Shown: positions 1 to 4,627 of the stretch, one piece after another
Numbering within the stretch: the stretch's first letter is position 1
Layout of the letters: every line of letters starts with the position of its first letter
Source of the DNA: a virus
Lineage: Duplodnaviria; Heunggongvirae; Uroviricota; Caudoviricetes
Direction: 5' to 3' (one strand)
Virus record (IMG/VR): IMGVR_UViG_2706794664_000008
Length of the DNA: 4,627 nt
Made by a program: the position numbers and the translations under genes
Notes under the pieces: generated by a model
What the model saw: only the letters and a program-made list of their open reading frames with translations
Told to the model about the DNA's origin: nothing
Database searches by the model: none

Positions 1-76
1 GCTGTCGTTCTCAAAATCGGTGGAGCTGCATGACAAAGTCATCGGGCATTATCTGAACATAAAACACTATCAATAA
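1..76 (+). CDS. insB: IS1 transposase InsB, 3' end only (5' part outside window)
   Basis: Plus-strand frame starting at base 2 reads ...LSFSKSVELHDKVIGHYLNIKHYQ with TAA stop at 74-76, which is the C-terminus I recall for IS1 InsB. The same sequence is duplicated in inverted form at the other window edge. Confidence 0.75.
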   Translation, partial: LSFSKSVELHDKVIGHYLNIKHYQ

Positions 77-685
77 GTTGGAGTCATTACCTGCGCCCCC
101 CTGTGGAATGTAGTAATAACGTTCCATAACGCGGGCACGCCATATTTCCAGATTTTCAATATCTTCACCGTCTGTAATGGTGTCAGCGTACCCTGTGGAC
201 GGCAGACCACTGACGGGTGTTCCCAGTTGCATGGCAATACCATCATCCGTATTCCCCGCCGATCCCGGTTCGTCTGCCACAACAGGCACCCGGAGAAGAC
301 CATCGGCTGCGGTCACCGTCGCCGTCGTGGTAAAGGTCACCTGATTATCACGCTGGATCTGCGTTCCCGCTGGCAATACCGGCGTCCCCTCTACGCCATC
401 CCAGCGCACAAATCCCCGGGCTGCCACCGCTTCTTTTCGCGGGCAGCGTTTGATTCTGGCGTGCCGGTACAGCCAGTCTTCATCACACACGTCCGGTAAC
501 AGATTTCTGGCAAGATAATCGATATACCCGTACAACGTGTGTACGGCTGCAGCCTGTACACGGGCATACACTTCCGCATCCATACGACGAAGCAGCGTAT
601 CCTGCTCAAAGCGGGTTAATAAATCGCTCCGGATCATAGAAATAAGTTGCGGGAGGCCGGGGCGATAAAACTGACTGTCAGCCAT
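11..685 (-). pseudogene. Baseplate J-like protein (Mu gp47 family), truncated by IS1 insertion; native part is 92-685, and 14-91 encodes a 26-aa IS1-derived tail before the stop at 11-13
   Basis: ATG at 685-683 with GGAG about 8 nt upstream, and an 8-nt overlap with the gp46 stop. The position after gp46 follows the conserved Mu order. The N-terminal ~198 aa read like the baseplate-J family up to ...RYYYIPQGGA; the frame then enters IS1 at base 91 and reads GNDSNLLIVFYVQIMPDDFVMQLHRF before the stop. Family proteins are about 350-380 aa, so roughly the C-terminal 40-45% is absent here. Confidence 0.6.
69..91 (+). repeat. IS1 terminal inverted repeat (IRR, ~23 bp)
   Basis: atcaataagttggagtcattacc; its reverse complement GGTAATGACTCCAACTTATTGAT is the classic IS1 end. 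It matches the recalled IS1 left end GGTGATGCTGCCAACTTACTGAT at 18 of 23 positions, as expected for IS1's imperfect terminal repeats. Confidence 0.8.
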
Positions 686-1088
686 TCAGTTCACTCCAGA
701 TATCATCAAAAATAATGTTGTGAATATTGCCGTCACGCTGGTAAATGGTAATGGCAAGTGCCAGCGAGTCTGTCCCGGTCCGGACAGCGTTAATATCAAG
801 ACGGGAAGCAACACCATCCTCCACCATCCACGCCAGCGCCTCACGGACATAATCTCTGGCAAGCTGCGGGGTTTTATTTGTCAGCTTGCTGCGTCGCAAC
901 AGATACAAACGCGACCCCGTGCGATCATTCTGAACCGCAGGCCAGGTATCCCCCCACCATCCAAATATCCGTGGTGCATCATCACGCCCGGCACGCCGCC
1001 ATGTAAAAAGCGAAATAATCACAGCACGCGTCAGAAGGTCGATCGAAGCCCCGGTCGACACGGGTCGCCCGTTAACATTAATCATCAT
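678..1088 (-). CDS. Mu gp46-like small baseplate protein (gp25/W-like wedge component)
   Basis: 136-aa ORF, close to the ~140 aa of Mu gp46, lying between the gp45-like and gp47-like genes. ATGATG start at 1088-1083, 5 nt after the gp45 stop; its stop overlaps the gp47 start (ATGGCTGA), consistent with translational coupling. Confidence 0.55.
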   Translation of the reverse strand: MMINVNGRPVSTGASIDLLTRAVIISLFTWRRAGRDDAPRIFGWWGDTWPAVQNDRTGSRLYLLRRSKLTNKTPQLARDYVREALAWMVEDGVASRLDINAVRTGTDSLALAITIYQRDGNIHNIIFDDIWSELNG

Positions 1089-1093
1089 GATTT

Positions 1094-1627
1094 TCAGCCC
1101 ATCGGTTGATCCGGCGTGTCAGTGATCCCGCCACCATCACCATTTTCGGTATGTTTGTGGGCATTGTAGGCCTGCCGCATTTGCTGCATGCTGAGTCCGC
1201 CACTGTCGCAATTGTCAGTAATATCGGCGGTGGATTCGACTGGCATTTCAAAGCGCGCTTTAGGCGCGTTTTTAAAAATTATGGCCTTCCCGGCCCCGTC
1301 CACCACAATACCGGAACGGGTCAGGACAACGGACTGTCCCAGATCGTCATAAAGCGCCACTTCCCCACGTTTCAGTCCTTTCAGCCGGTAACGTCTGTCA
1401 GCCACGACCACAACCACACCATGAGAACGATCGCCCGCCGGAAATAAAGCAACGCCCTCAGCACCGTTCTGTGCGGCAGATGTAAAACCATAAGGTTCAA
1501 GGTGCTCAACGTGTTGTTTCTGATCTCCGGCTATCATTTTCAACCCTACAGACTGACACTTTCTGGCGGAATCCACCGCCGTGATGACAGCCCGGGAAAT
1601 CAGATTACGAAGAGAAAACCCGTTCAT
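1094..1627 (-). CDS. Baseplate central spike / assembly protein V-like (Mu gp45 family)
   Basis: 177-aa ORF with a strong SD (AGGAGG, 7-nt spacer) before the ATG at 1627-1625. The C-terminus is Gly-rich with an H-x-H motif (NAHKHTENGDGGG), typical of gpV-type spike apex metal sites. Size and position after the P-like gene match Mu. Confidence 0.6.
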   Translation of the reverse strand: MNGFSLRNLISRAVITAVDSARKCQSVGLKMIAGDQKQHVEHLEPYGFTSAAQNGAEGVALFPAGDRSHGVVVVVADRRYRLKGLKRGEVALYDDLGQSVVLTRSGIVVDGAGKAIIFKNAPKARFEMPVESTADITDNCDSGGLSMQQMRQAYNAHKHTENGDGGGITDTPDQPMG

Positions 1628-2681
1628 CAGAAATCCTCCTCAACATTTTTTTCTTCCTGGCGGTAACAGGCTCGGGGAGATAAGCATCTGCCGGGCCAAC
1701 CCGTAATTCAGTCGTCGTGCCCCGGTCGTCCTGGTTATAGGTAACTTCTGCGATCACCAGTTCATCATTATCAAAATTATTCAGCGGGTCGAAAACGATG
1801 ACAGATAACCCCGGACGCCATAACGCGCCACTGCCCTGCCGCCAGCCCTGAACCGTATATGTTGTCTCACGGGTAAGCGCAGCCCGTTGGCGCGCTTCAA
1901 ATTCACAACGGGCCTTACAGGTTGCTGTCGTTGCTGTGCCTGACTGCTGAATCAACAAAGGGCGATAACGGGTCACGCCACTGTCCTGAATGGTCTGACG
2001 TATTGCGGCAATGGTGGCCTCACCAAAATCATCGTCGTTGCCCGGGCGCTGCCCACTGACCTGATATTCAGAAAACCGCTCTCTGATGCTTCTTTCCGTG
2101 TCACAGGAAAGAATATTCTCTCCCAGCACCAGCGCCGTCGCCGCTTTACCTGTTCCGGGTTTTCCCAGAACCAGTCGCCCGCATTCATCGTCATAAGCCA
2201 GCGTCTGAACCTGCCCCAGTAACCGGTTAAGACAATCGGCAACGGTTTCGCCGTGTTCCGGCTGGGCATCAATCACCGCTGTCTGCGGCACGCCAGCATC
2301 AACAACGGTGATGCCAAATGGCGCAGCCAGTTCACTGACTATTCTGAGCAGGTTTTTTCCGCTCTGCTGGAGTGGCAAAGCAGAGCAGTCAACCAGATCG
2401 GCTGTTTTGCTTCGCCCGACAATTCCCATGCTGACGCTGCTGGCGTCATAACGAAGCGGTAGTGCCTCCACATATCCGGTGAGCACAGGCTCATCCCCGA
2501 TAAGCACTTCAACCAGCTCACCATTTTTTATCCGGGGTTGATAATCCCGGCTTCCGGGCCAGCGGGTGGTAATGGCAACATTAAAATCCCGGGCAATACG
2601 GTTAATGCCCGCACTGATACGGACGGATGTCCAGCCGCCCCATTCGCGACCGGAAACCCGAAGTAAAACGGTATCATTCAT
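1605..2681 (-). CDS. Baseplate hub protein (Mu P/gp44-like, phage late control D family)
   Basis: 358-aa ORF, against about 379 aa for Mu P. Its start overlaps the N stop in an ATGA arrangement (2678-2681). It lies between the N-like and spike-like genes as in Mu, and the coding GC matches its neighbours. Confidence 0.6.
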   Translation of the reverse strand: MNDTVLLRVSGREWGGWTSVRISAGINRIARDFNVAITTRWPGSRDYQPRIKNGELVEVLIGDEPVLTGYVEALPLRYDASSVSMGIVGRSKTADLVDCSALPLQQSGKNLLRIVSELAAPFGITVVDAGVPQTAVIDAQPEHGETVADCLNRLLGQVQTLAYDDECGRLVLGKPGTGKAATALVLGENILSCDTERSIRERFSEYQVSGQRPGNDDDFGEATIAAIRQTIQDSGVTRYRPLLIQQSGTATTATCKARCEFEARQRAALTRETTYTVQGWRQGSGALWRPGLSVIVFDPLNNFDNDELVIAEVTYNQDDRGTTTELRVGPADAYLPEPVTARKKKMLRRISDERVFSS

Positions 2682-4096: not shown

Positions 4097-4110
4097 ACTG
4101 TCTCCACTAT

Positions 4111-4134
4111 AAAAAAACCGCCAATTTCTGGCGG
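4111..4134 (-). terminator. Rho-independent terminator downstream of orf131 (hairpin is symmetric, so possibly bidirectional)
   Basis: On the minus strand a 6-bp GC-rich stem CCGCCA/TGGCGG (plus 4118-4123 and 4129-4134) with a 5-nt loop is followed directly by TTTTTTT (plus 4111-4117). It lies 9 nt after the orf131 stop and about 15 nt before the N start codon. Confidence 0.7.
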
Positions 4135-4142
4135 CTTATATA

Positions 4143-4538
4143 TTAATCATCATTAATATCTTTCATATTCAATTTGCAATTTTCGTAGGTCACTCCCGAC
4201 TCGCCATTAACATTAACTCCAGCTCTGATATTCCCGTTTTCTTTTACATCTACAAAAAACTGGCCTCTTGGCATCTTGAACGCAAATGTAAAACCAACAG
4301 TATCTGAATCAAAATCATCATCTTTATATATTGGGATCAAAAATGTCATCGTCGCTGGTGATGCATTGTTTGCAAAATCAAATACACCTATACTTTTGCC
4401 GAATTCATAAGAAGCTTTTCTCAATATAATCGCACCGCTGGCAGAAGGGGATGGGCACGATATCCTCAGTTGTCTGAATCCATCTGTATCCAAGTCAACG
4501 TCATTATCTGCAGATGTTTTAACGGGTAATGACTCCAA
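4143..4538 (-). CDS. Hypothetical protein, AT-rich; possibly a 5'-truncated gene cut by IS1, or a small cargo (moron) gene
   Basis: The only long ORF in a clearly AT-rich block (about mid-30s % GC by eye, against mid-50s for the baseplate genes). The annotated TTG start at 4538-4536 lies inside the IS1 terminal repeat and has no convincing SD, while the frame is open from the IS1 boundary (4524) to the TAA at 4145-4143. Internal ATGs at 4349-4347 and further downstream are alternative starts. I recognise no domain; the protein is Asp/Asn/Phe/Gly-rich. Confidence 0.4.
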   Translation of the reverse strand: MESLPVKTSADNDVDLDTDGFRQLRISCPSPSASGAIILRKASYEFGKSIGVFDFANNASPATMTFLIPIYKDDDFDSDTVGFTFAFKMPRGQFFVDVKENGNIRAGVNVNGESGVTYENCKLNMKDINDD

Positions 4539-4547
4539 CTTATTGAT
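4525..4547 (-). repeat. IS1 terminal inverted repeat (IRR, ~23 bp)
   Basis: GGTAATGACTCCAACTTATTGAT at 4525-4547, the canonical IS1 end; exact inverted copy of 69-91. Confidence 0.8.
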
Positions 4548-4627
4548 AGTGTTTTATGTTCAGATAATGCCCGATGACTTTGTCATGCAGCTCCACCGAT
4601 TTTGAGAACGACAGCGACTTCCGTCCC
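4540..4627 (-). CDS. insB: IS1 transposase InsB, 3' end only (5' part outside window)
   Basis: Minus-strand frame reads ...GRKSLSFSKSVELHDKVIGHYLNIKHYQ with TAA stop at 4542-4540, identical to the copy at 1-76. Confidence 0.75.
   Translation of the reverse strand, partial: GRKSLSFSKSVELHDKVIGHYLNIKHYQ

What the first reader, a model, noticed from the sequence alone, without database searches (positions are those of the whole stretch)
1..4627. Phage baseplate segment bracketed by two inverted IS1 ends (composite-transposon-like or IS1-mediated inversion/junction)
Bases 1-91 and 4525-4615 are a perfect inverted repeat, and both are the InsB-proximal end of IS1 pointing inward. The 4.4-kb segment between them carries part of a Mu-like tail operon plus an AT-rich ORF. 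Perfect identity over at least 91 bp implies recent transposition or gene conversion. Inverted IS1 pairs can mobilise the intervening DNA or invert it by homologous recombination, so the current gene order may not be ancestral.
Basis: partly seen in the sequence, partly recalled or inferred. Interest (0 to 1): 0.55.

Follow-up and report, generated by a model that had tools for sequence, protein, structure and literature searches.

The report
Two IS1 insertions in dead prophage
The window is a short draft-assembly contig from Shigella sonnei: a piece of a decaying phiP27-like prophage tail operon lying between two separate insertions of the very common insertion sequence IS1, which is ordinary and already present in published reference genomes.

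Summary
Bases 1-91 and 4525-4615 are a perfect inverted repeat, and both arms are the insB-proximal (right) end of IS1.

The window (outside a run of N) is 100% identical to Shigella sonnei 53G. In ten long assemblies, including 53G:
- both IS1 copies are present, measured as 768 bp and identical to each other in 53G;
- each copy is flanked by its own 9-bp target duplication (TGCGCCCCC and GTTTTAACG in window orientation);
- the 4.4-kb segment is collinear with IS-free relatives (E. coli FDAARGOS_944, phage phiP27).

These are therefore two independent simple insertions. One cuts the baseplate J/gp47 gene. The other cuts a small AT-rich lipoprotein-like gene. The host element is a phiP27-like prophage tail module with Mu-type baseplate genes.

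There is no sign that the unit moved as a composite transposon. No unit-level duplication exists, no second genomic context was found, and no plasmid carries it. There is also no inversion in any resolved genome.

The terminal inverted repeat appears in the window because short-read assemblers stop inside the collapsed multi-copy IS1. The marker protein for this insertion lies in 226 blocks of the assembly collection, and in 186 of them its longest contig is only 2-5 kb.

Verdict: known and ordinary, of low interest.

The parts
1..91 (+). Right (insB-proximal) end of an IS1 copy, IS1 nt 678-768. It includes the last 24 codons of insB (2-73), the stop codon (74-76) and the 23-bp terminal inverted repeat (69-91). 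The rest of the element lies off the left end of the window.
   Evidence: Identical to annotated IS1A of MG1655. Pfam DDE_Tnp_IS1 E 2.6e-9. Continues as a 768-bp IS1 in S. sonnei 53G.
92..100 (.). Inner copy of the 9-bp target-site duplication (TGCGCCCCC) of the IS1 inserted in the gp47 gene.
   Evidence: In L006 and nine other long assemblies the same 9 bp (GGGGGCGCA in locus orientation) lies on both sides of this IS1. The IS-free locus L001 has a single copy.
92..685 (-). N-terminal 198 codons of the baseplate J / Mu gp47-like gene, cut by IS1. Read-through into IS1 gives a 224-aa fusion ORF (11-685).
   Evidence: Pfam Baseplate_J E 3.5e-24; phrog_2103 and phrog_6. The full-length 360-aa gene is in L001. 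The C-terminal remainder lies beyond the IS1 in complete genomes (Baseplate_J_C).
678..1088 (-). Phage GP46 (Mu gp46-like baseplate wedge) gene, intact.
   Evidence: Pfam GP46 E 4.5e-33; phrog_180.
1094..1627 (-). Mu Gp45-like baseplate assembly protein V (spike) gene, intact.
   Evidence: Pfam Phage_Mu_Gp45 E 2.1e-26.
1605..2681 (-). Mu gp44 / GpP-like baseplate hub gene. It is 358 aa here against 351 aa in L001 and phiP27, because of a 1-nt shorter A-tract near its 3' end.
   Evidence: Pfam GpP-like_1st, Gp44-like_2nd, NMB1110_3rd and GpP_4th; phrog_177; alignment column 1347; annotated lengths.
2678..4096 (-). Mu gp43-like 'DNA circularization' / baseplate hub gene, interrupted in the window by the run of N.
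   Evidence: Pfam DNA_circ_N E 6.9e-27 on the N-terminal part; phrog_184 for the full L001 protein.
3535..3818 (.). Run of 284 N (a scaffold gap or a masked stretch). The real sequence in S. sonnei 53G is 257 nt.
4115..4137 (-). Terminator-like hairpin followed by a T-run, just downstream of the AT-rich ORF and upstream of the gp43 start.
   Evidence: scan_promoters_terminators: 10-pair stem followed by TTTTATAGTG. This is a consensus match only.
4143..4524 (-). 3' part (codons 35-160) of an AT-rich 160-aa ORF (phrog_5586, unknown function; lipoprotein-like signal peptide in the intact copy), cut by the second IS1.
   Evidence: The full-length copy is in L001 10030-10512. phrog_5586 E 9.7e-89. 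GC is 0.36-0.39 against about 0.55 in the tail genes. The ORF is absent from phiP27.
4516..4524 (.). Inner copy of the 9-bp target-site duplication (GTTTTAACG) of the second IS1.
   Evidence: CGTTAAAAC lies on both sides of this IS1 in ten long assemblies. L001 has a single copy.
4525..4627 (-). Right (insB-proximal) end of a second IS1 copy in the opposite orientation, IS1 nt 666-768. The rest lies off the right end of the window.
   Evidence: Identical to IS1A of MG1655. Continues as a 768-bp IS1 in 53G.

Best explanation
The window is a short-read contig (or small scaffold) of a Shigella sonnei chromosome, 53G-like. It covers the part of a phiP27-like prophage tail module, with Mu-type baseplate genes gp43 to gp47, that lies between two independent IS1 insertions. 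One IS1 entered the baseplate J/gp47 gene and duplicated TGCGCCCCC. The other entered, in the opposite orientation, a small AT-rich lipoprotein-like gene between the tape-measure and gp43 genes and duplicated GTTTTAACG. Both insertions destroy their target gene. They are part of the well-described IS1 expansion and prophage decay in Shigella. The segment has not moved or flipped; it sits in its ancestral place and orientation. The perfect inverted repeat sits at the two ends of the window because the assembler ran from unique DNA into IS1 on both sides and stopped there, IS1 being a collapsed repeat with many copies. Shown: the identity of the IS1 ends, the full-length copies, the target duplications, collinearity, and recurrence of the same small contig. 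Inferred: that the window's own genome has the same outer junctions and orientation as the ten resolved genomes, and that the N run is a gap estimate or a mask.
For: (1) Both arms are identical to annotated IS1A, with a Pfam IS1 transposase hit. (2) The window is 100% identical outside the N run to S. sonnei 53G HE616528.1 (L006) and, over the 2895 nt compared, to CP044151.1 (L008). The accession is S. sonnei 53G according to PMC5447701. (3) The exact 224-aa gp47::IS1 read-through protein lies in 226 blocks of the assembly collection. In 186 of them its longest contig is 2-5 kb, and in 20 it exceeds 1 Mb. (4) In L006 both IS1 copies are 768 bp, each with identical 9-bp direct repeats on both sides. 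(5) All four junction sequences occur once each, on the same strand and in the same order, in all ten long assemblies L003-L012. (6) The two IS1 copies are identical over 768 bp and differ from IS1A at 3 positions. (7) IS-free relatives are collinear and hold one copy of each target 9-mer. These are E. coli FDAARGOS_944 at 99.1% and phage phiP27 at 96.8% over window 92-4100. (8) IS1 ends are highly repeated: the whole-window query found 116,376 places in 5,092 of 5,426 complete E. coli genomes, and only 48 records hold most of the window. (9) Literature: IS1 makes up the largest share of the several hundred IS copies in Shigella chromosomes (PMC7373316).
Against: The window carries only the inner junctions. 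Its own outer junctions and its orientation relative to the flanks cannot be read from it, and short-read contigs would be identical in either orientation. Two scans of the GTDB representative-genome collection found no contig from the source assembly. Eleven further long contigs carrying the marker protein were collapsed as 'similar places' and not inspected. The unequal lengths of IS1 at the two ends (91 and 103 nt) and the cause of the N run are not explained in detail.
Confidence: 0.93

Rival explanations
1. IS1-IS1 homologous recombination has inverted the 4.4-kb segment in the source genome, or does so in part of the population, so the gene order there is not ancestral.
For: Two identical 768-bp IS1 copies lie in inverted orientation 4.4 kb apart and are a valid recombination substrate. 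IS-mediated inversions are frequent in Shigella: 103 of 114 reconstructed inversions mapped to Shigella branches (PMC8072062). The window itself cannot distinguish the two orientations.
Against: All ten long assemblies examined have the ancestral orientation, with each IS1 flanked by its own duplication. Two of them match the window exactly over the 2895 nt compared, and for one (53G) the rest of the unmasked segment was also compared and is identical. No inverted example was seen.
Confidence: 0.04
2. The unit IS1-segment-IS1 is a composite transposon in the manner of Tn9 or Tn1681. It arrived at this site, or has spread from it, as one 5.9-kb element.
For: Two intact IS1 copies bracket the DNA with IS1 left ends outermost. 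In principle IS1 transposase could act on those outer ends.
Against: The outermost flanks are different 9-mers (CGTTAAAAC and GGGGGCGCA), and each matches the inner flank of its own IS1. The DNA outside both IS1 copies continues the same genes that are cut, namely the gp47 C-terminal part and the lipoprotein-gene 5' end followed by the tape measure. No plasmid holds more than 6% of the segment. No complete E. coli genome has the segment with IS1 at either junction. The cargo is a broken piece of a tail operon with no selectable function.
Confidence: 0.02
3. The terminal inverted duplication is an assembly artefact (a chimera or hairpin) and no IS1 really abuts this DNA.
For: The repeat sits exactly at the contig ends. 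The window also contains an unresolved N run, so the assembly is of draft quality.
Against: Both junctions are reproduced base for base in ten independent long or complete assemblies. The read-through protein created by one junction occurs in 226 blocks of the collection.
Confidence: 0.01

Closest known systems
IS1 (IS1 family; for example IS1A of E. coli K-12 MG1655)
   Same: In S. sonnei 53G both copies are 768 bp with insA/insB. They have IS1 terminal repeats (both window ends identical to the IS1A end) and 9-bp target duplications. They are 765/768 identical to IS1A.
   Different: Three substitutions relative to IS1A (positions 127, 262, 265), which I infer to be the variant that expanded in S. 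sonnei. Nothing else differs.
IS expansion and IS-driven pseudogenisation in Shigella (Hawkey et al. 2020, PMC7373316)
   Same: IS1 insertions inside coding sequences of a Shigella sonnei chromosome, shared by many isolates. IS1 is the most abundant IS there.
   Different: None in kind. This is one locus among the several hundred IS insertions per S. sonnei chromosome (median 286 detected by ISMapper).
Stx2e phage phiP27 tail/baseplate module (genes L47-L53)
   Same: Same gene order from tape measure through DNA circularization, baseplate hub, assembly protein V, gp46-like and baseplate J. Identity is 96.8% over window 92-4100.
   Different: phiP27 has no AT-rich ORF between the tape-measure and DNA circularization genes, which are 15 nt apart. 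It has no IS1 and a 351-aa hub gene. The S. sonnei copy is interrupted by IS1 twice, and an IS3-family transposase pair lies directly upstream of its sheath gene.
IS1 composite transposons Tn9 and Tn1681 (from my own knowledge, not tested against their sequences)
   Same: Two IS1 copies bracket a few kb of DNA. As I recall, Tn1681 also has them in inverted orientation.
   Different: There is no duplication around the unit, no second context, no plasmid copy and no selectable cargo. Each IS1 has its own duplication.
IS-mediated inversions in Shigella (Seferbekova et al. 2021, PMC8072062)
   Same: The substrate, identical inverted IS copies, is present.
   Different: No inversion is seen at this locus in any resolved genome.

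Membership tests
IS1 insertion sequence | Sequence identity to a reference IS1 through the terminal inverted repeat | tested here: met
   Window 1-91 and the reverse complement of 4525-4627 are identical to the end of annotated IS1A. The full copies in 53G are 765/768 identical to IS1A.
IS1 insertion sequence | Full-length element of about 768 bp with insA and insB | tested here: met
   Not visible in the window. In L006 both copies are 768 bp, and InsA and IS1 DDE transposase ORFs are called at both copies in all ten loci.
IS1 insertion sequence | 9-bp direct target-site duplication flanking each copy (simple insertion) | tested here: met
   CGTTAAAAC and GGGGGCGCA flank their respective copies in ten assemblies. 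The IS-free locus holds a single copy of each.
Composite transposon (IS1-flanked, Tn9/Tn1681 type) | Two IS copies bracket the cargo | tested here: met
Composite transposon (IS1-flanked, Tn9/Tn1681 type) | One target duplication flanks the whole unit, so the outer flanks are identical | tested here: not met
   The outer flanks are CGTTAAAAC and GGGGGCGCA, and each matches the inner flank of its own IS.
Composite transposon (IS1-flanked, Tn9/Tn1681 type) | The unit is found in more than one genomic context or on plasmids | tested here: not met
   All ten loci share the same flanking prophage genes on both sides of the IS1 pair. No plasmid carries the segment. No complete E. coli genome has either IS1 junction.
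IS-mediated inversion | Inverted identical IS copies at both breakpoints | tested here: met
IS-mediated inversion | Exchanged target duplications, or broken collinearity with IS-free relatives | tested here: not met
   The duplications are not exchanged. The locus is collinear with L001 and phiP27. For the window's own genome this cannot be tested with these tools.
Draft contig bounded by a collapsed repeat | Both contig ends are partial copies of a multi-copy element, and the same small contig recurs across assemblies while complete assemblies resolve full copies | tested here: met
   The ends are 91 and 103 nt of IS1. The whole-window query found 116,376 places in E. coli genomes, with only 48 records holding most of the window. 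In 186 of 226 blocks the longest contig with the marker protein is 2-5 kb, while assemblies over 1 Mb show full IS1 copies.
Mu-type / phiP27-like contractile-tail baseplate module | Ordered genes gp43 (DNA_circ_N), gp44 (GpP), gp45, gp46, gp47 (Baseplate_J) | tested here: met
   All Pfam hits are above the gathering score. Identity to phiP27 is 96.8%.

The most novel reading that the evidence does not exclude
The most novel reading not excluded is that, in the source isolate or in a subpopulation, the 4.4-kb baseplate segment flips between two orientations by recombination between the identical inverted IS1 copies, or that it can be mobilised as an IS1 composite unit. This would make the locus a small, unrecognised site of structural heterogeneity in S. 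sonnei. Even then the affected genes belong to an already inactivated prophage, so a phenotypic consequence is unlikely.
Probability: 0.05. Interest if true: 0.15.

Novelty: already known. Interest (0 to 1): 0.06.

Why it matters
It matters little beyond housekeeping. The locus is one more example of IS1-driven decay of prophage genes in Shigella sonnei. It also shows how multi-copy IS elements fragment short-read assemblies into small contigs with repeat-derived ends. The practical lesson is that an inverted repeat at the two ends of a short contig should first be read as 'unique DNA between two copies of a collapsed repeat'. It also shows that per-copy target duplications in complete relatives settle the choice between composite transposon, inversion and simple insertion.

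Tried and rejected
(1) I scanned the GTDB representative-genome collection for the predicted outer junctions with a degenerate pattern covering both. I then scanned it with a pattern matching the inner, outer and uninterrupted forms of the gp47 site. Both gave 0 hits, so the source assembly's neighbouring contigs could not be recovered there.

(2) I searched for the segment on plasmids as a test of mobilisation. Only distant fragments covering at most 6% were found.

(3) I tried to assign the AT-rich ORF to a family. Pfam, NCBIfam, PADLOC and PDB sequence searches all came back empty. The only hit was phrog_5586, of unknown function.

(4) Python access to loci L003-L012 failed because the files were not exported. 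Junctions were checked instead with exact-pattern searches over the loci and with alignments.

(5) I rejected the composite-transposon, inversion and assembly-chimera readings, for the reasons given under the rival explanations.

(6) I did not use the large protein-homology, structure-prediction or metagenome searches, because the question was settled without them.
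Full report
**Observation.** The window has a perfect 91-nt inverted repeat, arms 1-91 and 4525-4615. This is far longer than any other repeat in it; the next inverted pair is 20 nt at 85%. Both arms align without mismatch to the end of the annotated IS1A element of E. coli K-12 MG1655. The left arm is IS1 nt 678-768. On the right, IS1 sequence continues to the last base of the window, so 4525-4627 is IS1 nt 666-768. The length of 91 is therefore set only by where the window begins. The 24 codons at 2-73 match the C-terminal end of Pfam DDE_Tnp_IS1 (E 2.6e-9). 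The inner flanks it quoted are correct.

**What lies between the arms.** All genes are on the minus strand:
- the first 198 codons of a baseplate J/gp47 gene (92-685);
- GP46 (678-1088);
- Mu Gp45 (1094-1627);
- the gp44/GpP baseplate hub (1605-2681);
- the gp43 'DNA circularization' gene (2678-4096);
- a terminator-like hairpin (4115-4137);
- an AT-rich ORF (4143-4524; GC about 0.37 against about 0.55).

Both terminal ORFs are truncated exactly at the IS1 ends. The window also has 284 N at 3535-3818.

**Where it comes from.** The gp47 fragment reads through into IS1 and gives a 224-aa product (11-685) that exists only if IS1 sits at exactly this position. An exact-sequence look-up finds this product in 226 blocks of the public assembly collection. 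In 186 of them its longest contig is 2-5 kb, and in 20 it exceeds 1 Mb. One of the long contigs is HE616528.1, which is Shigella sonnei 53G (PMC5447701). Outside the N run the window is 100% identical to 53G. It is also identical to CP044151.1 over the 2895 nt compared. It differs from the other eight long assemblies by one substitution plus a hexanucleotide repeat number, apart from a few extra differences in L004. The window is therefore a S. sonnei contig, and the same roughly 4.6-kb contig appears to recur in many short-read assemblies of this species.

**The decisive test.** Complete genomes allow this.
- In 53G the IS1 next to the AT-rich ORF is 768 bp and reads ...TTAGTAA CGTTAAAAC | IS1 | CGTTAAAAC ATCTGCAG....
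- The IS1 in gp47 is 768 bp, in the opposite orientation, and reads ...CCACAG GGGGGCGCA | IS1 | GGGGGCGCA GACCCTGATT....
- Each copy therefore carries its own 9-bp direct duplication.
- Exact searches for all four junctions find each once, on the same strand and in the same order, in all ten long assemblies.
- The DNA beyond the IS1 copies continues the interrupted genes. On one side this is the 5' end of the AT-rich ORF followed by the tape-measure gene. On the other it is the C-terminal part of gp47 followed by gp48 and the tail-fibre genes.
- The two IS1 copies are identical to each other over all 768 bp and differ from IS1A at three positions.

**IS-free relatives.** A search of 5,426 complete E. 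coli genomes finds 48 records that hold most of the window. None has IS1 at either junction, since every listed match starts at base 91 and none extends past 4524.
- The best match, E. coli FDAARGOS_944 (99.1%), has an uninterrupted 360-aa baseplate J gene and an uninterrupted 160-aa ORF. Each contains one copy of the respective 9-mer exactly where IS1 sits in S. sonnei.
- The closest phage is the Stx2e phage phiP27, at 96.8% over window 92-4100, with the same gene order.
- The order and orientation of the segment in S. sonnei are therefore ancestral.

**Interpretation.** These are two independent simple IS1 insertions into a phiP27-like prophage tail module.
- A composite-transposition history is contradicted. 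There is no duplication around the unit, the flanks continue the cut genes, and no second context or plasmid copy exists.
- An inversion is contradicted for every resolved genome, although the substrate for one exists.
- An assembly chimera is excluded by the reproducibility of the junctions.
- The inverted repeat occupies the two ends of the window because assemblers cannot extend through a repeat present in many copies. The whole-window query found 116,376 places in E. coli genomes while only 48 records hold most of the window, so nearly all of these are the IS1 ends.
- Published work reports several hundred IS insertions per S. sonnei chromosome, with IS1 the largest share (PMC7373316).
- Perfect identity of the arms reflects the recent clonal expansion of one IS1 variant in this species. 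It does not point to anything special about this pair.

**What remains inferred.** The window itself holds only inner junctions. Both orientations of the segment would give the same short-read contig. The state in the source isolate is therefore inferred from ten relatives, of which 53G is identical across all of the unmasked segment and CP044151.1 across the part compared. Two scans of the representative-genome collection did not recover the source assembly. Eleven further long contigs carrying the marker protein were not inspected. IS-mediated inversions are common in Shigella (PMC8072062), so a low-frequency or strain-specific flip cannot be excluded. It would affect only an already inactivated prophage.

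**Comparison with known systems and novelty.** The elements are ordinary IS1 copies and meet every defining feature tested. The unit fails two defining features of a composite transposon and the diagnostic features of an inversion. The host element is a known type of prophage tail module. Both insertions are present in published S. sonnei reference genomes. This is already known biology and is of low interest.

**Side observations.**
- The N run is 27 nt longer than the real sequence in 53G, which suggests a scaffold gap estimate or a mask.
- gp44 contains a (GCTGGT)n repeat with 2, 3 or 4 copies among S. sonnei genomes.
- A 1-nt shorter A-tract changes the gp44 C-terminus relative to E. coli and phiP27.
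- The AT-rich ORF is a moron-like insert absent from phiP27. The intact copy has a lipoprotein-type signal peptide, and it belongs to no family other than phrog_5586.

Noticed in passing
window 3535-3818: The run of 284 N sits inside the gp43 (DNA circularization) gene. S. sonnei 53G and E. coli FDAARGOS_944 have 257 nt there, so the run is 27 nt too long. This inflates the ORF to 472 aa against the real 463 aa. It looks like a scaffold gap-size estimate or a mask, not real sequence length.
   Followed up: partly
window 4143-4524 (full copy: L001 10030-10512, minus strand): The AT-rich ORF is a moron-like insert with its own terminator-like hairpin, lying between the tape-measure and gp43 genes. 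phiP27 lacks it, and among E. coli loci that hold most of the window only 11 of the 30 records listed extend into it. The intact 160-aa protein starts with a lipoprotein-type signal (…FLMTVAILTSC, lipobox LTSC). It matches only phrog_5586 (unknown function), with no Pfam, NCBIfam, PADLOC or PDB sequence hit. It may be a prophage-encoded outer-membrane lipoprotein, and a superinfection-exclusion role like Cor or Llp is speculation. In S. sonnei it is cut after codon 34 by IS1.
   Followed up: partly
window about 2121-2135 (gp44 gene, minus strand): A hexanucleotide repeat (GCTGGT)n, encoding Leu-Val repeats, varies among S. sonnei genomes. There are 2 copies in the window, 53G, CP044151.1 and E. 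coli FDAARGOS_944, 3 copies in L003 and 4 copies in seven other assemblies.
   Followed up: no
window about 1640-1647 (3' end of gp44, overlap with gp45 start): The homopolymer tract is A7 in the window and in nine of the ten S. sonnei loci (A6 in L004), against A8 in E. coli FDAARGOS_944. This shifts the last codons of gp44, giving 358 aa with a 23-nt overlap with gp45 here, against 351 aa in FDAARGOS_944 and phiP27. It may be another decay mutation in the prophage.
   Followed up: no
window 11-685 and 4143-4538 (minus strand): Both IS1 junctions create chimeric ORFs. The gp47 fragment reads 26 codons into IS1, giving a 224-aa product. A TTG inside the IS1 terminal repeat opens a 131-aa ORF over the lipoprotein-gene remnant. 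The 224-aa product proved a convenient exact-match marker for this insertion across public assemblies.
   Followed up: yes
L003-L012 (about 1-1000, 18100-19500) and L001 (1-1137, 14441-15631): The prophage is degraded beyond the window. In S. sonnei an IS3-family transposase pair lies directly upstream of the sheath gene. An IS4-family element lies a few kb past the tail-fibre genes, in most of the loci beyond smpB. In E. coli FDAARGOS_944 the sheath gene is split by ISEc60, and a frameshifted ipaHe effector gene lies beyond the tail-fibre genes. That 'E. coli' strain therefore carries an effector gene typical of Shigella and EIEC.
   Followed up: no
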